The position numbers and the translations under genes were made by a program. The notes under the pieces are model-generated. The model was not told the DNA's origin. It saw only the letters and a program-made list of their open reading frames with translations, and did no database searches. A DNA stretch of 64,000 bases from Torpedo marmorata (lineage: Eukaryota). Position 1 is the first letter of the stretch. Every line of letters starts with the position of its first letter. The stretch lies in the NCBI GenBank assembly GCA_977017645.1, contig OZ360231.1, forward strand, positions 868,001 to 932,000, given 5' to 3'. Shown in pieces: positions 22,986 through 52,805 of this stretch.

Positions 22986-23714
22986 AAATTTGATTACTGT
23001 GGGATTCACCTTGGTGCAAAACATGGTAATTTCCAAAACCTGTCGTGTTGCTTCAGGCATACATACTGACCCTTATCAGCAAGAATTTCATCACTCCTTT
23101 CTATCCCTCTCACACTCAACACCTCCCAATATACACTTGTGAGGAAGTGACTATAATAGAGAAACTAACACTTTCCATTCAAAAACAATTCTGATAATGA
23201 TTTCAGTTAAAGAAATGGAACCATAATCAAGCACTTGGCCCACACTCAATTCTTATGGAAAGTGATGTAAATATAATTACCAATTTTAAAACAAAGGCAG
23301 AATTCTCACCTGTCACAGCTCTGTCATTGAGTTTAGTGAAAGTATTGTATTTGGCCTGGACACAAAAGCTTCTAAATTGGATACCCTCTGGCAACAGGCA
23401 CCTTTGTCAAGGTGCTTTAATGTTTTCGGTTTCCTGTTTTATGTGTATCAGTGCCACAGGTTGTGCTGTTGAGGGATGTGACATTACATTAGCCATTTCA
23501 CGCACCATATTATCCCATTAGAGATTAATGAACAGATATATGGCTAAAAAAATCACTCCTGTTGTTCATCCTTTTTTGCATAGCACAAATGAATTCTACC
23601 TAAAATTAAAACACGAAAATCTGTGGACACCGTGGTTGAAGTAAAAAACACAAATGCTGGAGAAACTCATCAGGTCAAACAAACAGTGTCCTTTATGTAG
23701 CAAAGGTAGAAATA

Positions 23715-23755
23715 CATAACCGACGTTTCGGGCTTGAGCCCTTCATCAAAGTATG
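23715..23755 (-). ncRNA. Minimal type I hammerhead-ribozyme-like motif in the inverted PLE arm
   Basis: Minus strand reads CATACT-TTGATGA-A-GGGC(TCAA)GCCC-GAAACGTC-GGTTATG. Confidence 0.65.
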
Positions 23756-24000
23756 AGAAAAGGCCGGTAGGCGTCCGAACAAAAGAGTGAGGGGAGAAGG
23801 GGGATGGCAAAGGCAGGAGATAATAGGTGGAGAAAGGAGGGAGGGGACAGCAGCAAAGAGGGGGAGGAGGGATGGCTGGGTAGCTGGAGAAAAACAGGAA
23901 GGACAGGTGAGGGGGGAGGGGAAGGGAACGACAAGCATGTTTAGTGGAAAGCAGAAAAGTCAATGTTAATGCCATCTGGCTGGAGAGTGCCGAGACGGAA

Positions 24001-27000
24001 GTTCGCCTTTGCTCTCCGAAGGGAGTTCTGTGGGATTCTCTCTCACTGCTCCCCATCTGCAACCCCTGCTGCTCTCAAGCTCTACGACCATGTACTCACC
24101 CAGACTCGATTCCACAGCCACGTTGCCTTCCTTGCTATTTGCCTCCGTCGTCATCTTGTGCCTCGTGGTTTCCAGCTTCGATTCCAGGCCTCGCAGTTTG
24201 GCGCCAGCAAGGACCTCAGGTACCTCCATAACATCAACTGCTGCTCTCTCCGCTTCTCCCAAAGACTCCTCCGCACCACCCTCACCTCGATGCGGAGATA
24301 CCAGTGGAAACTCGCCCTCTCCCTGCCACAGCTCCGGACCTCGCTGGCCATGGCCTGCAACGGACCCCTCCTATACTACATCCGCCGCCGGATCCACGCG
24401 TTCAACCGCCGGCTCTACACCTACCTGGCGTCCATCAAGAACCGTAAGCTTGCATCCCTTGAAACTGCAGCCTCTGCTACCCTCCACGTGGATCCCCATC
24501 TCGGCCCCGGCCGCCTGCCCTCCGGAGGTCCCAACGCCGCGTCCGCCGATCCGATCCCTGGTCCCAGCCTCCGACTCACCGGAGCTCCCCACGCCGCAGC
24601 CGCCGACCCGAACCTGGACCCCGGCCGCCGACTTACCGGAGCTTCCAACGCGACGGCTGCCGACCCGACCCTGGACCCCGGCCGCCGACTTACCGGAGCT
24701 CCCAACGCCGCAGCCGCCGACCCGAACCTGGACCCCGGCCGCCGACTTACCGGAGCTCCCTACGCCGCAGCCGCCAACCCGATCCCTGGTCCCGGCCGCT
24801 GACTTACCGGAGCTCCCAACGCCGCAGCTGCCGACCCGAACCTGGACCCCGGCCGCCGACTTACCGGAGCTCCCAACGCCGCAGCCGCCGACTTGATCCC
24901 TGGTCCCGGCCGCCGACTCACCGGAGCTCCCAACGCAATGGCCGCCGACCTGACCCTGGACCCCGGCCGCCGACTCACCGGAGCTCCCAACGCTGCAGCT
25001 GCCGACCCGACCCTGGACCCCGGCCGCCGACTCACTAGAGCTCCCAACGCCGCAGCCGCCTGCTCCTATCCGCGCCCCGGGCGCCGACACGATGGTACTC
25101 CCGAAGCTACGGCCGCCAACCCCAGCCCGGACCCTGAGCCTCTACTCACCAGAGTTCCCGATGCCTCCACTGCCGACTCCCGACACAGACTGTTACCTGC
25201 TGGAGCCTCCCACGCTGACTGCCACTGGAGTCCTCACCTCGCAACAAGATCCCACTTACCTATCCCCCTCACTACTCCTTCCCTCTCCTCCTGCACCTCT
25301 CCCTACTCCACCCCCATCTCCCCCTCTCTGCCCCACTCTCCTCCCCAACCCTCAGACCTCATCCCTTCCCTTCCCTCCATCCCCCCCCTCTCTCTGGCTA
25401 CCCTCCCTACCCCACTCTCCCACCCTCCTACCTCCCCTAGCCCCCACCTCCCCCCTCCGACCCCCCTCCCCCTCCCTCCAACCTCCCCCACCCTCCACCT
25501 CCCCCCTCTGACCTCCCCAACCCTCCCCCTCCCCCCAACACCCTCCACAACACCGATCCCCACTCTAACACCTGCTTGGTTTTTGCTATCCCCTCCGACC
25601 TTCCCCTCTCTGAGACGGAGCACTCCGTCCTCAGTAGAGGCCTCACCTTCGTCCCCCTCCGCCAACACCTCAACGAGTTCCGCGCACGCCATGATGCCGA
25701 ACTCTTCTTCCATCGCCTCCGCATCCGTGCTCACTTCCATGACCGTGACTCTCCACCCCCCCACCCAAGACCCTTTCTCCCGCTTCAAGCCTTCTTCCTC
25801 TTCCTGGACACCTCACCCTGGCCAGCTGTCCGCTCTGGACCTTTTTATTTCCAACTGCCGCCGAGACATCAACCGTCTCAACTTCACCACCCCCCTCTCG
25901 TATTCCAACCTCACCTCCTCAGAACACTCTGCCCTCCACTCTCTCCGCAACAATCCCAACCTCACCATCAAACCCGCAGACAAGGGCGGTGCGGTTGTGG
26001 TCTGGCGCACTGACCTCTACCTTGCCGAGGCCAGTCGACAACTCTCAGACACCTCCTCCTACTGACCCCTCCCACAGGACCCCACCACAGCACATCAAGC
26101 CACTGTCTCCAACACCATCTCCGACCTCATCACCTACGGCCACCTCCCCTCCACGGCCACCAACCTCATTCTCCACCCCCGCACTGCCCGTTTCTACCTT
26201 CTACCCAAGATACACAAACCCAACCATCCGGGCAGACCCATTGTTTCTGCCTGCTCCTGCCCCACTGAACTAGTTTCATCTTACCTTGACTCCATCTTTT
26301 CTCCCCAGGTCCAATCCCTCCCCACCTACATCCGTGACACCTCACATGCCCTCCATCTCCTCAATGACTTCAGATTCCCTGAACCGAACCGCATCATCTT
26401 CACCATGGATGTCCAATCCCTTTATACCTCTATCCCCCACACAGAAGGTCTGAAAGCACTTCGCTTCTTCCTGGACCAAAGACCCGACCAGTCACCCTCT
26501 ACCACCACCCTCCTCCGCCTGGCAGAACTTGTCCTCACTCTCAATAACTTCTCCTTCAACTCATCCCACTTCCTCCAAATCAAAGGAGTAGCCATGGGTA
26601 CCCGCATGGGTCCCAGCTACGCCTGCCTGTTTGTGGGCTTTGTGGAGCAATCCATGCTGCAAGCCTACACAGGCAAGACCCCTCATCTCTTCCTCCATTA
26701 TATCGACGACTACATCGGGGCTGCCTCATGCACCCGCGATGAGCTTGTCAACTTCATCCACTTCACATCCAACTTTCACCACAATCTCAAACTCACCTGG
26801 TCCATCTCCGATAACACTCTCCCCTTCCTGGATCTCTCTGTCTCCATCTCGGGAGACAAGCTTTCCACCGACATTTACTACAAACCCTCCAACTCCCACA
26901 ACTATCTGGACTACACATCCTCACACCCTGTCCCCTGCAAGGACTCCATCCCCTTCTCTCAATTTCTCCGCCTCCGCCGCATCTGTTCCCAAGATGAGGT

Positions 27001-27720
27001 GTTGCACTCCAGATCTTCTGAAATGTTTGCCTTTTTCCACAAACGTGGCTTCCCCTCCACCACCATCAACTCAGCCCTCACCCGCACCTTCTCCATTTCC
27101 CGCTCATCTTCCCCCAGACGTAACAAACATAGAATCCCCCTCATCCTCACCTACCACCCCACCAGCCTCCGCATCCAACACATTATCTGCCAGAATTTCC
27201 GGCACTTACTACAGGATCCCACCACCAGACACATTTTTCCTTCTCCTCCCCTCTCGGCCTTCCGTAGGGACCGCTCCCTCTGCGATTCACTCGTGCACTC
27301 ATCCCTCCCCACCCATCGCACCCCCGGCACCATCCCCTGTGCCCGCAGGAGGTGCAACACCTGCGCCCACACCTCCCCCCTCACCACGGTCCAGGGCCCC
27401 AAACAGGCCTTCCAAGTGAAACTACACTTCACTTGTACATCCAGAGAACTTATTTACTGCATCCGGTGCTCCCTTTGTGGCTTTCTCTACATTGGAGAGA
27501 CCGGTCGTAGATTGGGAGACCGCTTTGCTGAGCACCTCCTCTCCGTCCACAACAACAGCGACCTCCCAGTAGCTAACCATTTCATTCCGGGTCACACTCC
27601 CACACTCACATGTCTGTCCATGGCCTCATGTACTATCCCACCCAGACTACCCGCAAATTGGAGGAACAACATCTCATATTCCGTCTCGGCACTCTCCAGC
27701 CAGATGGCATTAACATTGAC
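24001..27720 (+). pseudogene. Disrupted PLE ORF: N-terminal region, repeats, reverse transcriptase, Cys linker, GIY-YIG endonuclease
   Basis: VLSRGLTFVP, KPADKGG, MDVQSLYTSIPH, GVAMGTRMGPSYA, YIDD, LPFLD, SIPFSQFLRLRRICS, PCARRRCNTCAH, LIYCIRCSLCGFLYIGETGRRLGDRFAEH. TGA stops at 24800 and 26063 plus several frameshifts. Confidence 0.9.
24500..25140 (+). repeat. 57-bp GC-rich coding tandem repeat, about 10-11 units (PGRRLTGAPNAAAADPNLD)
   Basis: The unit CCCGGCCGCCGACTTACCGGAGCTCCCAACGCCGCAGCCGCCGACCCGAACCTGGAC recurs every 57 nt, in frame with the PLE ORF. Confidence 0.92.
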
Positions 27721-27920
27721 TTTTCTGCTTTCCACTAAACCTGCTTGTCGTTCCCATCCCCTCCCCCCTCACCTGTCCTTCCTGTTTTTCTCCAGCTACC
27801 TAGCCATCCCTCCTCCCCCTCTTTGCTGCTGTCCCCTCCCTCCTTTCTCCACTTATCATCTCCTGCCTTTGCCATCCCCCTTCCCCCTCACTCTTTTGTT
27901 CGGACGCCTACCGGCATTTT

Positions 27921-27966
27921 CTATTACTTTGATGAAGGGCTCAAGCCCGAAACGTCGGTTATGTAT
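27921..27966 (+). ncRNA. Minimal type I hammerhead-ribozyme-like motif in the PLE 3' terminus
   Basis: TTGATGA (27929-27935), A, helix II GGGC/GCCC with TCAA loop, GAAA (27949-27952), CGTC. PLE termini are known to carry minimal hammerheads. Confidence 0.65.
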
Positions 27967-30561
27967 TTCTACCTTTGCTACATAAAGGACACTGTTTGAC
28001 CTGCTGAGTTTCTCCAGCATTTGTGTTTTTTTCTACCTAAAATTAGATTGCTGCAGGCAGTGAGCTTTTTGAGCGCACAGAGTGGATACACAAAAGCTGA
28101 GCACATGCAGTGAAGTTGAAATGATGTACTGTACATGACATGTTGTGTTCATTTCCCTTCTATGCTAATATCCATACAAACCCCAATCACCTCCAGTCAT
28201 CCAAGACCACCACCCATCAACTGATCCCCAATCCTTCCTCTGTTGATACAATCTTCCACTCATTTTTACAAACCACACAATAGAATTTTTGTCCAATCTG
28301 GGAGTGCATTCTGTATTTTTCATCATGTTTCTCCAGGCTAACGATGCAGATACACAAAATGGTGTCAAATGGAACTCAGCACTCTATTGGCACTACTTGC
28401 ATGAAATTCTACGATTTGTGTACAAATGATGAAGAGTACAAGTCTTGAGACATTAACCTTCCTTGAGGTAGGTTCCTCTGAGTTTTCAGTGCCGATCATC
28501 ATACACTCGCTTGACCAATGCCGGTTCAAAGTCTTCCCCTTGAGTTTCCTTGCCAACTAACCCACTGATCAATCCCCTTACCTCCAACGGTTAACCCCCT
28601 CCAGTCATCTGTTCTTCTTGGGATTCGTTCCCACTGGCAATCTTTCTGTAACACTTCTGTTCTCATCTAATCCACATCCCAATGCATTTCCTCCATGATA
28701 TCCTCTGCAATGCTACAAGAATGCAGAGGAAAGGCCTTTCAGTGCACTTACACACGTACAGTATATTCTACAAACACAGCAAACAAGATTAGTCTCTGCA
28801 CCCAGATCATTTATGTAAGATACAGTAGCTGACCAACCATAAACTTCCTTCATCCAGTATTGCATCTTAATTAGAAATGTCTTTTGATTTTATCTGTTAC
28901 TGAATATGTTCACCCCATATTAAGGAAGGAAAGAGCAGACAGTGGTCACAGTTTTATAACCCCGTCCTGATCGATGCTACCTCATCCTTGGAAGCAAAGT
29001 TAAAGCTCCGCATCTGCCTGTCGGAACATCCCGGTATTCTCAGCGGAAATTTGCAGTCTGATATTACACCAGGAAATCTGGCTTGACCTTCCTTGATGAA
29101 TTTTGCTTCCAGTACATGAGAGAAGATCTTGGCATCGGACTTTATCTGATGGTTTCCCAGATAGGATTTTGTTACAGTAATCCAGTATCACTTGTCCTCT
29201 CATCAGACTTTACTGAACATCACCTTGTGAAAGATGGCATAGATCAGCATGGGGACAGATCAATACACTTGATATAGCTCACGTGGAATGTGGCAGTGAG
29301 ATTTATCAGCCTCCACATGTTGGGTTGATCAAGAAACTAAAGCCCCATAGGATTCAAGGAAAATTGGAAAAAAGATTATAAAAATAGTTCAATCACTACA
29401 GGGAAAAGTCAATGAGAGTTTTGGAGATGTGACAGCTATGTGCATGGGGTTAATGGGACAAGATCTAACATTCCTCACTTAATATGAACATTTGTAGGGG
29501 CTATGAATAAGAAGCTTCCTGATAATGCCAAGATTGGAATGTAATGATCGAGGAAGAAGGTTGTTGGCTACAAGAAGGTACCAGGAGCCAAGTTAGATAT
29601 GCCCAGGAATATCAATCAAAAGTCAATCTGGAGGTGTGTGAGCTGGTCCATTTGTGAGATCAAACCCAGAAAATTGCTGTGATCAATTTTGCTTTGAGTT
29701 CAAATCACCATAACTGTAACAGTTATTGATGTTCGATAAGAACTTGTATTCTAGATAATTCCAGAACTTAGAGGGCATGGGTTGAGGTGAGAGGGAAGAA
29801 ATTTAAGAGGGACCAAAGGGGCAACTTTTTCACTCACAGAGTAGTCCATATCTGGGACAAGCTGACAGAGAAAGCTCTAGAAATGGGTATGATTTCAACA
29901 TTCAAAAAACTTAGATTCAAGATTCCTTTATTATCATGTACACAAAATACACAAAATTTGTTTTCCTTTGCCCTGTAAAGGCACATAGAGGTGCCACTAG
30001 ACCAATGGAATGGTTGGGCTGATGTGGGGTCTGTACCTGGAGAGTGTCTGGGCTGACATCAGAATAACCAGGGGAATAGGTCCACTTCACAATCTGTCCT
30101 GGGCTTGGCTAAAATGGGCATTTTTAAAGTCCAGGCAGTGGAGCCAACTGCTGGCCCTATTTCAAGGTCATGGTCATGTGAGGGAGATGGAGAACCTGGC
30201 GTTAGCCATATTATTGGTGGCTTTGGAGGGCCGGTGGGAATTGTGGGGGCTAGAGTGGATTCTGAACAACGTTTTGTATTGTTATCGGTATCATTCCAGA
30301 GTCAACCTCAATCTATATTGTCCCGTCACATTCTCCCTGCACAGGTGAGGAAAAAAATGGCACATTTATTTGACCAGTTCCTGCCACATCTAAATTTTGA
30401 GGGATAATCAAACTTTTACCGTAAATTAAATCAAATTACCAACAAAGTTTACTGAACTATATTCAGGGTTGTTTTATTGGGCATATCTCGATGTTTTTTT
30501 CATAGAACTGGGTGTTGTAATCAAGTTTGCTATTTGTTCAAATAACCATTTAACTATAATA

Positions 30562-30808
30562 AAAAACACAAAAGCTGGAGAACTCAGCAGGTCAAACAGT
30601 GTCTTTTATGTAGCAAAGGAAGAAATACATAACCGACGTTTCGGGCTTGAGCCCTTCTTCAAAGTACTTTGAAGAAGGGCTCAAGCCCGAAACGTCGGTT
30701 ATGTATTTCTTCCTTTGCTACATAAAAGACACTGTTTGACCTGCTGAGTTCTCCAGCTTTTGTGTTTTTTACTCTAACCACGGTGTCTACAGATTTTCAT
30801 GTTTACTT
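30562..30808. mobile_element. Palindromic non-autonomous PLE-terminus element
   Basis: Perfect spacerless inverted repeat 30560-30665 / 30666-30771 plus a one-sided ~37-nt tail. 14-bp TSD ATTTAACTATAATA at 30548-30561 and 30809-30822. Confidence 0.92.
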
Positions 30809-31099
30809 ATTTAACTATAATAGATACATCCTGTGTATTCAAGATGCAGTATTAATGGGTAGAGAATATCAAGAACAGGGTATTGAATATGGATGACCAT
30901 CCATAATCAGATTGAATGGTGGCGCAGGCTGGAATGGCTACTCCTGCTCCTACTTTCTACGTTTCTATTGGGACAACCCCTTCCTAACAGTAAATAGATC
31001 TTACCGAATTATAATAAAACATTTAGGTTGTGCAGAAAGAATTGCATAAGATTGGCCATAATTGCTGACATGAGGCTGAGGAAGTGTGGTAAATTTTAA

Positions 31100-31430
31100 A
31101 AATAGTAGTTGTCAAAATTAGTTATTGAATCTGGAATTTGTCCAAGATATTCTGTATGATGCTGTATGGCTGACGATAGGAGGTGCTATACGAAAGGGCC
31201 AGTCATCCAGTAGCAAAATTTTGTCTCTGTTTAGTTTATGCAAGATTTGTGTTTTGATTCTGTGTTAATGTGTCCTGCCCTCTGAGAGTTTATGCATGAT
31301 CTATTGGTAATTTTATGGGCCATAGGGAATGCGGTGAACTGCCTTAGGAGTTTCTCGACAAGTCGGTCGTACTCTCTGGGAAACAATCTGTCAAAATGAT
31401 GTACAGACTTCCTTTTATAGTTAACCACAA
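31100..31430 (-). mobile_element. Possible ancient L1 ORF1 remnant
   Basis: Broken frames give LVEKLLRQF, LPIDHA*TLR (like IDRAHR) and KTQILHKLNRDKILLLDDWPFRI, in the order expected for L1 ORF1. Confidence 0.35.
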
Positions 31431-32087: not shown

Positions 32088-35000
32088 TTTTTAAAATATA
32101 TTTTTTAAATATTTTATTTAAAATTATTAAATCACAGAATACATAATATAAAATGCAAAATTATCAAAATACATGTGATACATTTTCACCCCCCCTCCCT
32201 CCCTCCCCTCCCTAACCTTCCCACCCCTACTAATCTACTAAAATAGAAAAGAAAGAAAGAAATAAAGAAAGAAAAAGATAGAGTAAGGAGAATGTCAATC
32301 TAAAAAAGAACAACTATAAGCTGATTTTATTGTTGAAGATAGGTTCGCCAGTCAGATCTGATATCCAGAGATCTTCAAATCTTTAAACCAACAGTTTTTA
32401 TATATGGGCTCCATATTTTCAAAAAGAAATGATATTTATTACGTAAATTATAAGTAATTTTTTCAAGTGGTATACATGAACGAAGTTCTGCATGCCATCT
32501 TTCTAACCCTAAATCTATATCAGATTTCCAAGTAATAGCAATGCATTTCTTAGAAACAGCTAAAGCAATTCGCAAAAATTCTATTTGATACATATTTAAT
32601 TTCATCTTAATACTAATTCTTTTAATATCTCCAAACAAAAATATCATAGGGTCCATTAGAAGTGTAATACTTAATACTTTGTCTAAAAATGTTTTAACTT
32701 TCAACCAAAAATCATATATCTTTGGACAGAACCATGTAGAATGTACAAAAGAACCTTCCTCTCTATTACATCTAAAACATAAACCTGATAATGTCGGATT
32801 AAATTTCTTTAATTTATTAGGTGTTAGATATAATTGATGAAAAAAATTATATTGCACTAACCTATATCTAATGTTAATAATCTTCGTCATACTTTGTTTA
32901 CATAATTCTTTCCAATGTTCTTCACCTATACATTGAGATCTGATTCCCATTTTAATCTTGATTTATGAACTCCTAATTTAGGCATTTTTCTCTGTAACAA
33001 TCTATACATTTGAGAAATAAATTTATTTACACCTCCATTAGTAACTAATAATTCCAGTTCACTTTGTCTTGGTAAAGTCAAACTATAACCCAACCTTTCA
33101 ACTAAAAATGCTCTGATTTGATAATAAGCAAAAAGTGTATTATTTAATATATTAAACTTTTCTTTCATTCTTTGAAAAGTAATAAATTTACTAGCTTCAA
33201 AACAATCATTTATTTTCTTAATTTCCTTTTGGAACCAAATTTTAAATAATTGATTATCAACAGTAAATGGAATGTTTATTTTGATATAAAGGCATTTTTC
33301 GAGAAATTAACCCTTTCCCTCCTATCTCCCTATCCACTCTATTCCATATTTCTAACAAATGTTTAAAAATAGGAGAATTTTTCCCTCTTGTTAATAATAA
33401 TTTAGAATTCCATTTATAAATAACTTTTTCTTTCAAATCTTCTCCTATATTATTTAATTCTATTCTAATCCAAGCAGAAGATTTTCCTAAATCAAACATT
33501 TCATTAACAAATTTTAATTGAGCTGCTTTATAATAATTTTGAAAATTGGGAAGTTGTAAACTACCCATTTCATAATTCCAAGTTAATTTCTCCATACCTA
33601 CTCTAGCCAACTTTCCTTTCCACAAAAACTTCTTAATAATTAAATTTAAACCTTTTTGAGGAATTTCATAAGGAATTGATTAAAAAAGATATTGAATTCT
33701 TGGAAAAACATTCATTTTAATACAGTTTACCCTTCCTATTAAAGTTATAGGTAAATCCTTCCAACTTTCTAGATCTTTTTTAATATTCATAAATGATGGT
33801 AAATAATTTAGTTTATATAAATTAGCTAATTTTGTATCAATCTTTATTCCCAAATACTTAATTCCTTCCTTTGATCATTTAAATTGTGTAATTTCTTTAT
33901 ATTTATTATAATCCCCTTGTGTCAATGCCATAATTTCACTTTTATCAGAATTAAGCTTATAACCAGATATTTCCCCGTATTCTCTCAATAAAACATTCAA
34001 TTGTATTAAAGAAGTAATAGGTTTTGTCATATAGATCAATACATCATCTGCAAATAAACTAATTTTATGCTCTTCTCTTCCAACTTTAATACCTGCAATC
34101 TTAATATCTTGTCTAATTAATTCTGACAAAGGTTCTATTGCTAAAATAAACAATGCTGCCGACAAAGGACATCCTTGTCTGGTTGACCTAGTCAAAGAAA
34201 ATTTTGAAGAAATGTGTCCATTTGTCACCACTCCAGCAGAAGGTTCTTTATATATAGTTTTAATCCAATTAATAAATGTAGTTCCAAAACCAAATTTCCC
34301 CAATACTTTAAATAAATAATTCCACTCTAATCTGTCGAAAGCCTTTTTGGCATCTAATGTTAATACTAATGCTAATTCCTCTTTTTTTGTGCCACATTTA
34401 TTAAACTAATTAATCTAGCTATATTATCTTTTGAATATCTATTCTTAATAAAGCCAGCTTGATCTACATGGATTAAGTCTGGTAAATATTTAGCCACTCT
34501 ATTTGCTAAAATTTTTGCCATTATCTTATAATCCACATTTAACAATGAAATTGGTCTATATGATTCTGTTTTCAATACATCTCTATCTTTTTTAGGTATA
34601 ACTGTAATTATTGCATTTGAAAATGTTTCTGGTAGCGAATGAGTTTCCGTTATTTGTTTCAACACCTCCATGTATGGAGGTATCAATAAATTATTAAACT
34701 CCTTATAAAATTCTGATGGGAAACCATCCTCCCCTGGAGATTTTCCACTCGTTAAAGAACTAAGAACATCATTAACTTCCCTCATCAAAAACGACAAATC
34801 TAAAAGTTCTTTACTTTGAGTATTTAATCTAGGTATCTTAATTTTAGATAGAATTTAATTAATTTTAGAATCATCTTTATCAGTTTGAGATTTATATAAA
34901 TTTAAATAAAATTTAATTAAAAAAGATTTAGAAAGTTGGAAGGACTTACCTGTAACTTTAATAGGAAGGGTAAACTGTATTAAAATGAATGTCTTTCCAA

Positions 35001-36930
35001 GAATTCAATATCTTTTTCAATCAATTTCTTACGAAATCCCTTCGAAATTCTTTAAGGATTTAAATTTAATTATTAGGAAGATTTTGTGGAAAGGAAAGTT
35101 GGCTAGAGTAGATATGGAGAAGTTAACTTGGAATTATGAAATGGGTGGTTTGCAACTTCCTAATTTTCAAAATTATTATAAAGCAGCTCAATTAAAATTT
35201 GTTAATGAAATGTTTGATTTAGGTAAATCTTCTGCTTGGATTAGAATAGAACTAAATAATATAGGAGAAGATTTGAAAGAAGAAGTTATTTATAAATGGA
35301 ATTCTAAATTATTATTAACAAAAGGGAAGAATTCTCCTATTTTTAAACATTTGTTAGAAATATGGAATAGAGTGGATAGGGAGATAGGAGGGAAAGGGTC
35401 GATTTCTCGAAAAATGCCTTTATATCAAAATAAACATTCCATTTACTGTTGATAATCAATTATTTAAAATTTGGTTCCAAAAGGGAATTAAGAAAATAAA
35501 TGATTGTTTTGAAGCTGGTAAATTTATTACTTTTCAAAGAATGAAAGATAAGTTTAATGTATTGAACAATACACATTTTGCTTATTATCAAATTAGAGCA
35601 TTTTTAGTTGGGAAGTTAGGTTATAGTTTGACTTTACCAAGACAGAGTGAACTAGAATTATTAGTTATTAATGGAGGTGTAAATAAATTTATTTCTCAAA
35701 TGTATAGATTGTTTTAGAGGAAAATTCCTAAAGTAGGAATTCATAAATCAAGATTAAAATGGGAATCGGATTTGAATGTAACAATAGATGAAGAACATTG
35801 GAAAGAATTATGTAAACTAAGTATGACGAAGATTATTAACGTTAGATATAGATTAGTCCAATATAATTTCTTTCATCAATTGTATTTAACGCCTAAACAT
35901 TAAAGAAATTTAATCCGACATTATCAGGTTTATGTTTTAGATGTAATAGAGAAGAAGGTTCTTTTGTACATTCTACATGGTTTTGTCCAAAGATATATGA
36001 TTTTTGGTTGAAAGTTTAAAAAAAATTAGATAAAGTATTGAGTATTACACTTCCAATGGACCCTATGATAATTTTGTTTGGAGATATTAAAAGAATTAGT
36101 ATTAAGATTAAATTAAATATGTATCAAATAGAATTTTTGCGAATTGCTTTAGCTGTTTCTAAGAAATGCATTGCTATTACTTGGAAATCTGATGTAGATT
36201 TAGGGTTAGAAAGATGGCATGCAGAACTTCGTTTATGTATACCACTTGAAAAAATTACTTATAATTTACGTAATAAATACCATTTCTTTTTGAAAATATG
36301 GAGCCCATATATAAAAACTGTTGATTTAAGGATGTGAAGATCTCTGGATATCAGATCTGACTGGCAAACCTATCTTCCACAATAAAATTAGTTTATAGTT
36401 CTTTTTTAGATTGACATTCTCCTTATTCTATCTTTTTCTTTCTTTCTTTCTTTTTATTTTAGTAGATTAGTAGGAGCAGGAGGTCTAGGGAGGGGAGGGA
36501 GGGGGGGTGAAAATGTATCACATGTATTTTGATAATTTTATATTTTATTTTATGTATTTTGTGATTTTAAAATTTTAAATAAAATATTTTTAAAAAATTA
36601 ATTTAAATAAAATTCTTTAAAGGAATCATTTATTTCTCGAGGTTTATATGTTATTTTCTTTGAATTCTTTTTTATGGAATTTATAGTTCTAGAAGTTTGT
36701 TCTTTCTTTAATTGCCACGCCAACACTTTATGCACTCTTTCTCCCAATTCATACTATCTTTGCTTAGTTCTTTCAATTAATTTTTCTATTTTATATGTTT
36801 GTAACGTATTATAATGCAATTTTTTTCCAATTAAGTTTTTCCTCTTTTCTTCTGATCTCTTTTTTTGCAAATCCTTCTCCAAAAATTCAATCTCCCTCTC
36901 CAAATTATCCACTTCCCGAACATATTCCTT
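32088..36930 (-). mobile_element. 5'-truncated L1-clade LINE interrupted by a same-family L1
   Basis: ORF2 fragments on minus at 32375-34900 resume at 36615-36930. TSD CTACCATATTGCTTCT (32072-32087) / CTACCATTTTGCTTCT (36931-36946). Confidence 0.92.
34914..36599 (+). mobile_element. 5'-truncated L1 nested in opposite orientation inside the previous L1
   Basis: ORF2 C-terminal fragments on plus, 3'UTR and A tail. TSD AATTTAAATAAAATT at 34899-34913 and 36600-36614. Confidence 0.92.
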
Positions 36931-51530: not shown

Positions 51531-51710
51531 CATGTACAATTAACGTCCTTCCTCCCCCTGTGCACATCGTGGACAGAAGATCCGTGCAACTTCACCTTCC
51601 CCCCACTTATTTATGTCCAGTTTATTATCGGGCATTGCAATAGTTTCATTTCAGTCGTTCAGTCCCATAGCGTTTACTTTGTTCTCCAAGCACGCAAACA
51701 AAATCTGGTG

Positions 51711-52212
51711 TAAATCACGAAAATCTGTAGACACCGTGGTTGAAGTAAAAACACAAAATGCTGGAGAAGCTCAGCAGGTCAAACAGTGTCCTTTATGTAG
51801 CAAAGGTAAAGATACATAACCGACGTTTCGGGCTTGAGCCCTTCATCAAAGTATGAGAAAATGCCGGCAGGTGTCCGAACAAAAGAGTGAGGGGGAAGGG
51901 GGGGGGGTGGCAAAGGCAGGAGATGATAGGTGGAGAAAGGAGGGAGGGGTCAGTAGCAAAGAGGGGGAGGAGGGGAAGGAAAAATGTGTCTAATGGTGGG
52001 ATCCTGTAGTAAGTGCTGGAAATTCTGGCGGAAGCGGAGGCTGGTGGGATGGTAGGTGAGGATGAGGGGGATTCTATGTTTGTTGCGTCTGAGGGCAGAG
52101 GGGGCCAGGGCAGATGAGCGGGAAATGGAGGAGATGCGGGTGAGGGCTGAGTTGATGGTGGTGGAGGGGAAGCCACGTTTGTGGAAGAAGGCAGACATTT
52201 CAGAAGAATCTG
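51711..52212 (-). mobile_element. 5'-truncated, internally deleted copy of the young PLE family, with tail and hammerhead-like motif (51815-51855)
   Basis: Near-identical to 23609-23870 and to parts of 27010-27250 (SEMSAFFHKRGFPSTTINSALTR). Confidence 0.9.
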
Positions 52213-52599
52213 GTACCGACTTAGCTATCCCTTCTGTTGACACGAACTTGTCTTCATATTCTGAGCAATGTATCCCAAATTCTGGAAATTGTCGGACTGT
52301 GTGAAAGAACTGCAAGGTGCAGAAATCTCAGCCCACGCCAGATGTGGGACACGACGCCTTTGATTTTATTTCTCGGCGTTTGTGCCATCGTTAGTGCTGT
52401 TTTCGTGCACCAATTAAAATACATCTGAGCGAGAACGAACTAAAACGCCGCCGAGCTGGAAGAATGTACCAGCTGCTCATCTCTTCACTTGCAGCACTTT
52501 CGCCCGAGACAGCTCACCGCCTTCCTTTCAATTACCAGCCTGCATTCAATTTCCAGTCACCTTTACTTTTGCGCTGATGCCGTACTTGTTTATATTGTT

Positions 52600-52805
52600 A
52601 AGTAAAAAACACAAATGCTGGAGAAACTCAGCAGGTCAAACAGTGTCTTTTATGTAGCAAAGGTAGAAATACATAACCGACGTTTCAGGCTTGATGAAGA
52701 GCTCAAGCCTTTGCTACATAAAAGACACGGTTTGACCTGCTGAGTTTCTCCAGCATTTGTGTTTTTTACTTCAACCACGGTGTCCACAGATTTTCGTGTT
52801 TACTT
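52600..52805. mobile_element. Second palindromic PLE-terminus mini-element with a rearranged centre
   Basis: Inverted arms ~52600-52663 / 52708-52771, central hammerhead fragments, one-sided tail. 14-bp TSD TTGTTTATATTGTT at 52586-52599 and 52806-52819. Confidence 0.9.

What the first reader, a model, noticed from the sequence alone, without database searches (positions are those of the whole stretch)
30548..30822. Perfect 212-bp spacerless palindrome that is a self-contained, TSD-flanked Penelope mini-element with back-to-back hammerhead motifs
Seen: arms 30560-30665 and 30666-30771 are exact reverse complements centred on AAAGT|ACTTT. Only the right arm continues into a ~37-nt tail, and a 14-bp TSD flanks the unit. 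Both arms share private variants relative to the 23609-28030 element (TTGAAGA vs TTGATGA, GGAGAACTC vs GGAGAAACTC, AAAGCTGG vs AATGCTGG). The inversion point lies a few nt 5' of the hammerhead core. Known: PLE insertions often have an inverted terminal copy and a 30-40 nt tail. Inference: either both target nicks primed on the same short terminal RNA (one at the tail end, one internally at the T-run), or this is a self-propagating hairpin non-autonomous family that looks like a MITE but moves via RNA. Post-insertion arm homogenisation is an alternative explanation for the shared variants.
Basis: partly seen in the sequence, partly recalled or inferred. Interest (0 to 1): 0.72.

Follow-up and report, generated by a model that had tools for sequence, protein, structure and literature searches.

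The report
Recurrent Penelope stub stopped beside hammerhead
This perfect mirror-image sequence is a real, very young insertion of the last 143 bases of an abundant Penelope-type jumping gene, one of 226 with the same seam; it is likely a by-product made again and again when both cut DNA strands copy the same RNA and stop at one preferred spot just past a ribozyme motif, and likely not a self-copying mini-element.

Summary
In detail: exact 106-bp arms, a 37-nt one-sided tail and a 14-bp TSD. The genome holds 226 insertions with the same centre, each with its own TSD, so it is no assembly artefact. At least five subfamilies gave this same seam, about 1-2% of their insertions (two subfamilies scaled), with variants mirrored in both arms. 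The seam is the commonest of a continuum of joins (1,195 nearby). It marks a strong copying stop: 24% of ends are lost in the 7 nt 5' of the hammerhead core against 5% in the next 7 nt. Either arm can be the longer one, and asymmetric seams face the tail both ways (5:4), which fits two independently primed cDNAs. The two hammerheads lie on opposite strands; a transcript would bury its one hammerhead in the hairpin. The layout is published; the scan noted similar stubs on other DNA of this genome. The measured stop site is the new detail.

The parts
30548..30561 (+). left target-site duplication (14 bp; last 2 nt shared with the left arm)
30560..30665 (-). left arm: inverted copy of the element's 3' end, without tail; its outer end is the T-run end seen in tail-less ends of long copies
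30661..30670 (.). seam AAAGT|ACTTT; a 2-nt self-complementary TA overlap of two copies of the native sequence CATACTTT
30666..30771 (+). right arm: last 106 nt of a young Penelope-like subfamily before the tail; non-coding (the RT-GIY-YIG frame of long copy L109 ends upstream)
30668..30703 (+). minimal type I hammerhead motif: U3UGA-A7-GA core 30669-75, extra A, stem II GGGC/UCAA/GCCC 30677-88, GAAA, palindromic CG, UC with predicted cut after 30696; the 5' strand of stem I is cut short by the seam
   Evidence: sequence read against features in PMC4209133; not detected by Rfam
30628..30663 (-). mirror copy of the hammerhead motif on the opposite strand
30772..30808 (+). 37-nt Penelope 'tail', one end only
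30809..30822 (+). right target-site duplication
23609..28034 (+). long relative of an older subfamily: RT (Pfam RVT_1), Cys linker, GIY-YIG; 392-nt inverted arm with tail at left, tail-less right end, 15-bp TSD; stops and a frameshift. Not the direct source

Best explanation
The unit is a TSD-flanked, head-to-head insertion of the 3' end of a young Penelope-like retrotransposon, likely made anew each time: both target nicks likely prime reverse transcription on the same element RNA, both cDNAs likely stop just 5' of the hammerhead core, and their ends are likely joined through a 2-nt TA overlap. Shown: structure, family size, identity of the arms with long copies, several source subfamilies, the excess of ends at 104-110 nt, one tail per insertion, either arm longer. 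Inferred: the endonuclease cuts both strands about 14-15 nt apart (TSD length); one nick primes at the tail end, the other 37 nt upstream at the T-run (two start sites bracketing the tail and extension of both strands were shown in vitro for an Anolis PLE, PMC11167929); both cDNAs come from one RNA or one source locus (arms always share a haplotype). Why copying stops there is the weakest step: most likely a stall or release after the nascent cDNA has copied the GC-rich stem II hairpin and enters an A/U-rich run, or a block by protein bound at the hammerhead; an RNA 5' end at the initiator-like TCATACT is less likely. The copy itself is predicted to be a dead end: a transcript would fold into a 104-bp hairpin that buries the hammerhead.
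For: 226 exact centres, control 0. Own TSD of 14-18 bp in 42 of 50 copies listed by centre alone; left arm ends at 103-110 in 43 of 50. Tail on exactly one side in 77 of 78, both sides in 0. Six subfamily-diagnostic sites in 77 copies: 115 symmetric calls against 11 one-arm calls (7 at CpG sites, 3 second mutations, 1 interrupted arm); no asymmetry shared by more than 3 copies. The main mini haplotypes all occur with native upstream sequence (2,862 matches for the one best candidate for a private type). Minis are about 1.0% of 5,336 and 1.9% of 3,662 tails of two subfamilies (12/50 and 15/50 of 226, scaled). 1,195 head-to-head joins within 30 nt of this place; of 50 listed 12 are this seam, 9 a 1-nt seam, 5 at GCCGGC, 3 GTATAC, 21 unique (tallied by eye); 523 more inside the hammerhead. 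Ladder 2,757 > 2,083 > 1,987. Tail-anchored sample: 8 of 51 copies reaching 102 end at 102-110, 2 at 111-119, 0 at 93-101. Single-arm stumps with TSDs start at the same place. Tail side longer in 9, shorter in 11, equal in 3 of 23 inverted insertions. The 1-nt seam faces the tail one way in 5 and the other in 4 of 9. Stem II pairing probability 0.00 in the full RNA, 0.95 in the right arm alone.
Against: All evidence is genomic footprint; no biochemistry on this element and no RNA data. Two-site priming on a palindromic transcript would also give symmetric variants and flip-flop centres, so some second-round copying cannot be excluded. This seam has only 2 nt of overlap yet outnumbers the 8-nt palindrome at GCCGGC (12 vs 5 of 50), and the cause of the stop is not shown; DNA folding of the nascent cDNA showed no change across the stop positions. 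Samples are the first listed places on contigs C1, C2, C5, and 39 of the 78 minis were first found by likeness to the query. One mini haplotype (2-3 copies) was not seen in long context in the sample. The arm-length correlation (rho 0.82, n=23) is inflated because only pairs that fit in the fetched DNA were seen. The arm/TSD overlap (1-5 nt in 36 of 50) has no shuffled control.
Confidence: 0.8

Rival explanations
1. Self-propagating hairpin element: palindromic copies are transcribed and re-inserted in trans; the two cDNAs are complementary across the centre, so the seam is inherited and both arms are re-made from the right arm each round.
For: 226 copies with one seam, many 99-100% identical; it is the commonest seam despite weak overlap; symmetric variants are expected under this version too; non-autonomous PLE derivatives are known (PMC8557442 section 10; 10.64898/2026.07.22.740005).
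Against: Haplotypes mirror long subfamilies; share of insertions is low and similar in two subfamilies; same start point in single-arm stumps and in many other seams; no upstream promoter sequence is kept; no shared one-arm mutations.
Confidence: 0.1
2. Same two-nick mechanism, but the stop is the 5' end of the RNA: transcription starts at the initiator-like TCATACT (A at position 108) and both cDNAs run off it.
For: Most stops map to 104-108; the two perfect seams GTAC and GTATAC use the TA and AT overlaps at 106-108; start sites lie in the pLTR of Penelope and Chlamys-3 (PMC8557442 section 10). The initiator consensus YYANWYY is recalled.
Against: Only 1 of 30 copies that read through the tail into the body starts at 107; in 8 of 50 joins one arm stops at 104-109 while its partner runs on to 112 or beyond (by eye).
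Confidence: 0.2
3. Snap-back self-priming: one cDNA folds back at its 3' end and is copied into the second arm (self-priming was proposed for PLE inversions in PMC3846280).
For: Explains one haplotype in both arms, the 7 symmetric singletons in 5 copies and seams at micro-palindromes.
Against: Predicts the tail-side arm is never the shorter one; it is shorter in 11 of 23, and the 1-nt seam faces both ways. The tail-less end sits at one fixed site, as a start site would.
Confidence: 0.06
4. Assembly fold-back artefact, or arms made equal after insertion.
For: Perfect spacerless palindromes are a known artefact type (general knowledge); no read spanning this locus was seen.
Against: Flanks are unique, with a TSD and a one-sided tail; 29 of 30 loci have their own TSD of 12 bp or more; 42 of 77 copies have mismatches between arms; the source subfamily already has the variants.
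Confidence: 0.02

Closest known systems
Endonuclease-positive Penelope-like insertions with inverted pLTR, one-sided 30-40 bp tail and TSD (Adineta Pen2/Pen2a, PMC3846280, passages read; PMC8557442, passages and section 10 read)
   Same: Head-to-head inversion, palindrome at the junction, tail at one end only, TSD.
   Different: Here both arms are cut down to 106 nt with no coding sequence; TSD 14-16 bp rather than 8-10; one seam recurs 226 times across subfamilies.
Poseidon element of Anolis in vitro (PMC11167929, parts 1-2 of 4 read; supplements not seen)
   Same: Both strands nicked and extended, two start sites that bracket the tail, AT-rich targets, uncut RNA as template, predicted dimer.
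   Different: Another clade (the source here has the Cys linker described for Neptune/Nematis). The parts read do not describe joining of the two cDNAs or a stop beside the hammerhead.
Minimal hammerheads of metazoan PLEs (PMC4209133, parts 1-2 of 4 read)
   Same: Extra base after A9, G-C first pair of stem II, palindromic minimal stem III; that paper already mentions pairs of motifs 100-700 bp apart on opposite strands.
   Different: U3 opposite G8 instead of C3-G8 (the paper reports U3-A8); stem I cut by the seam; buried in a hairpin.
Non-LTR retrozymes (10.64898/2026.07.22.740005, parts 1-2 of 5 read; PMC7229834, listing only)
   Same: Non-coding, hammerhead-bearing, pLTR-derived.
   Different: Retrozymes are head-to-tail tandems with two motifs on one strand; this unit is head-to-head with one motif per strand.
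L1 twin priming (PMC2837659, abstract start only; mechanism otherwise recalled)
   Same: Two target nicks prime on one RNA, giving an inversion inside a TSD.
   Different: In L1 the second primer sits at a variable upstream site and the arms cover different RNA; here the second start is fixed and both arms copy the same stretch.
MITEs (recalled)
   Same: Short, non-coding, hairpin-forming, dispersed.
   Different: Long variable TSD, asymmetric ends, retroelement origin; a repeat finder could mislabel it.

Membership tests
Penelope-like element insertion (EN+) | Source encodes RT with a C-terminal GIY-YIG endonuclease | tested here: met
   Window relative: RVT_1 above cut-off, GIY-YIG E 0.0029, below cut-off. 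L109 and L084, which carry the mini's arm haplotype, have open frames of 396 and 434 aa through RT and GIY-YIG motifs. A complete intact copy was not fetched.
Penelope-like element insertion (EN+) | Inverted terminal copy with a 30-40 nt tail at one end | tested here: met
   37-nt tail; one side in 77 of 78
Penelope-like element insertion (EN+) | Target-site duplication of variable sequence | tested here: met
Neptune clade | Cys-rich linker between RT and endonuclease; placement in an RT tree | tested here: inconclusive
   CxxxxCxxC linker seen, shared by Neptune and Nematis per PMC8557442; no tree built
Minimal type I hammerhead | Core boxes, stem II, palindromic stem III | tested here: inconclusive
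   All present by reading except C3 (U here); no Rfam hit
Minimal type I hammerhead | Self-cleavage | not testable with these tools
   Predicted buried in the hairpin. 0 of 50 joins are symmetric at the cut site; 5 of 50 have one arm starting there (by eye)
Non-autonomous self-propagating family | Own lineage with variants absent from autonomous copies | tested here: not met
   sample of 77 copies, not all 226
Non-autonomous self-propagating family | Transcription of the unit | not testable with these tools
   no RNA data laid
Non-LTR retrozyme | Head-to-tail tandem with two or more hammerheads on one strand | tested here: not met
   head-to-head, one motif per strand
MITE | Terminal inverted repeats at both ends with short fixed TSD from a DNA transposase | tested here: not met
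   right end carries a 37-nt extension; TSD 14-18 bp of free sequence

The most novel reading that the evidence does not exclude
Penelope-like elements integrate by making two cDNAs at once from one RNA, one from each target nick, and the hammerhead region acts in vivo not by cutting the template but as a terminator for the reverse transcriptase: about one cDNA in five that passes the core ends within 7 nt of it, which mass-produces hairpin stubs. The 1,700 short head-to-head joins in this genome would then be a base-resolution record of the still undefined second-strand step of Penelope transposition.
Probability: 0.3. Interest if true: 0.62.

Novelty: new member of a known kind. Interest (0 to 1): 0.34.

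Why it matters
How Penelope-like elements finish integration and what their hammerheads do are stated as open in the papers read (PMC8557442, PMC11167929). These stubs give in vivo support for two fixed start sites used on both strands and point to a sharp, measurable stop beside the hammerhead that can be tested in the existing in vitro assay. They also warn that a shared seam in hundreds of copies does not prove a self-copying family, and that such stubs can be mis-annotated as MITEs or miRNA hairpins (one search gives sub-threshold miRNA hits). As a single locus the finding is ordinary.

Tried and rejected
Rfam at gathering score over the window and at E<=10 over two stretches: no hammerhead family; only sub-threshold hairpin matches. 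Sequencing runs: no RNA holder listed. Four contig sets laid on 30100-31300: one covers both flanks at about 98% identity but no piece spans or skips the unit, so neither presence nor an empty site was shown. ADAR-type A>G excess in copies, which an RNA hairpin intermediate might leave: not seen in the right arm (1 A>G); the left-arm tally was swamped by one interrupted copy, so inconclusive. A splice junction at the stop, as in Drosophila Penelope where an intron ends at stem I (PMC4209133): rejected, since sequences upstream of the stops are unrelated to each other and there is no AG there. Ribozyme cleavage as the cause of the seam: rejected, the seam is 31 nt upstream of the cut site. Two different RNAs per insertion: the one A/T-discordant copy (L178) agrees between arms at the other diagnostic sites, so a point mutation explains it. 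An extra G opposite a cap at the stop: no consistent sign in 13 copies (the script stopped with an error before the last 2 of 15). Paper searches showed no title or abstract on fixed-seam palindromic PLE stubs or a stop beside the hammerhead; Repbase, Dfam and most subscription journals are not covered, and supplements were not read.

Full report
Observation. The palindrome is exact over 2 x 106 bp (30560-30771); nothing else in the window exceeds 9-bp arms. A 37-nt tail follows on the right only, and a 14-bp TSD flanks the unit, sharing 2 nt with the left arm. The arm matches the 3' end of a long element at 23609-28034 that encodes an RT, a Cys-rich linker and a weak GIY-YIG match, and that itself has an inverted, tailed left arm, a tail-less right end and a 15-bp TSD. 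This is the published layout of endonuclease-positive Penelope-like elements (PMC3846280 passages; PMC8557442 passages).

It is one of many. A DNA search of the 6.2-Gb genome gave 813 candidates; all 40 scored were full-length at 96-100% identity. Of 30 fetched, 29 have their own TSD of 12-18 bp. An exact 30-nt centre pattern gave 226 places, control 0. In the 50 places listed by that pattern alone, 42 have a TSD of 14-18 bp and 43 have a left arm ending at 103-110 nt. Of 78 copies held, 77 have a tail on one side and none on both. In 77 copies (one dropped for a left arm cut at 45 nt, one duplicate dropped) 42 show mismatches between arms. A fold-back artefact would not give these features, although no read spanning this locus was seen.

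The variants are not private. The arms are identical to the 3' ends of long copies L080, L084, L100; L084 and L109 of the same type carry open RT-to-endonuclease frames. The minis fall into several haplotypes defined by six sites and four or more tail types. At these sites 115 calls are symmetric and 11 are on one arm only, 7 of them at CpG positions. Among the 50 centres listed, 19 are A/A, 30 T/T, 1 T/C and none A/T at core position 7. The main haplotypes were all found again with native upstream sequence; the best candidate for a mini-only type has 2,862 such matches; one type with 2-3 copies was not seen in the sample. Scaled from the 50, minis are about 54 of 5,336 (1.0%) and 68 of 3,662 (1.9%) tails of two subfamilies. 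So the same seam was made repeatedly by different long subfamilies.

The seam is the top of a continuum. Head-to-head joins with up to 30 nt between the core-adjacent anchors number 1,195; by eye, of 50 listed, 12 are this seam, 9 a 1-nt seam, 5 centre on GCCGGC, 3 on GTATAC and 21 are unique. A further 523 joins lie inside the hammerhead. Longer inversions with arms of hundreds of bases occur in the same subfamilies. The perfect seams fall on self-complementary words of the native sequence: TA at 106/107, AT at 107/108, TGCCGGCA at 119/120 (positions count back from the T-run end, 106 = window 30666).

There is a real stop. Exact matches fall from 2,757 to 2,083 when the pattern is extended 7 nt upstream of position 104, and only to 1,987 with 7 nt more: 24% against 5%, mutation included in both. 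In 60 copies chosen by tail only, 8 of the 51 that reach 102 end at 102-110, against 2 at 111-119 and 0 at 93-101 (two of the 8 are a duplicated pair). Single-arm stumps with TSDs, tailed or tail-less, begin at the same place. The stop is 31 nt upstream of the predicted cut site; none of 50 joins is symmetric at the cut site and 5 have one arm starting there (by eye), so cut RNA is at most a minor template. This agrees with the in vitro finding that uncut RNA is the main substrate (PMC11167929).

Mechanism. That paper shows nicking and extension of both target strands and two start sites that bracket the tail. The genomic pattern fits use of both in one event. Fold-back of the tail-primed cDNA predicts that the tail side is never shorter; it is longer in 9, shorter in 11 and equal in 3 of 23 inverted insertions, and the 1-nt seam faces the tail one way in 5 and the other in 4 of 9. 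Arms share a haplotype, so both cDNAs likely come from one RNA or one locus. For the stop, an RNA 5' end at TCATACT is attractive, but only 1 of 30 read-through copies starts there and in 8 of 50 joins the partner arm runs past it. A stall or release after the stem II hairpin, 7-11 nt into an A/U-rich run, or a block by bound protein is my preferred inference; DNA folding gave no direct support.

Hammerheads. The two copies lie on opposite strands. A transcript folds into a 104-bp hairpin in which stem II has probability 0.00, against 0.95 for the right arm alone. Rfam does not detect the motif. Pairs of motifs on opposite strands were already mentioned in that paper.

What is left open. Copying of a palindromic transcript by two-site priming would leave much the same marks, so some self-propagation is not excluded (about 10%). 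Samples come from the first listed places of a few contigs. There are no RNA data.

Prior notes and verdict. After forming this reading I found that earlier agents reached the same view on other DNA of this genome (e1-9911423, e1-9975692, e1-9271753, e1-9852052); none lies near this window. They are unchecked notes, not support. Six paper searches showed no report of a fixed seam or of a stop beside the hammerhead, within the limits of that library. Verdict: a real but ordinary short product of a known class; modest interest (0.34) for the quantified stop and the footprint of two-nick priming.

Noticed in passing
window 52597-52805: Second short fold-back of the same family, older subfamily, with an asymmetric rearranged centre, one-sided tail and a TSD of about 14 bp.
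   Followed up: partly
window 23609-28034: Long PLE with a 392-nt tailed inverted arm, a 57-bp tandem repeat (24377-25189) and a C-rich tract inside the coding region; stops and a frameshift.
   Followed up: partly
G000:C1:83038148-83038194: Head-to-head join with TAACCC telomere-like repeats between the arms, suggesting telomerase-type or templated filling at the seam.
   Followed up: no
G000:C5:20311140-20314401: Ten head-to-tail 363-bp units that read through the tail, in two opposite blocks: a retrozyme-like tandem of this family. Shorter tandems of about 210-430 bp in L148, L155, L161.
   Followed up: no
window 32305-36407: Large inverted repeat (arms of 509 and 727 nt at 94-95%) of another AT-rich repeat with further copies at about 1.4-3.5, 15.3-17.8 and 58.5-60.7 kb.
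   Followed up: no
L082 (G000:C1:5814559-5814712): Insertion that starts twice at position 107: a 46-nt piece of the hammerhead followed by a second start at the same base.
   Followed up: no
window 51710-51903: Tailed end of another copy of the family on the minus strand.
   Followed up: no
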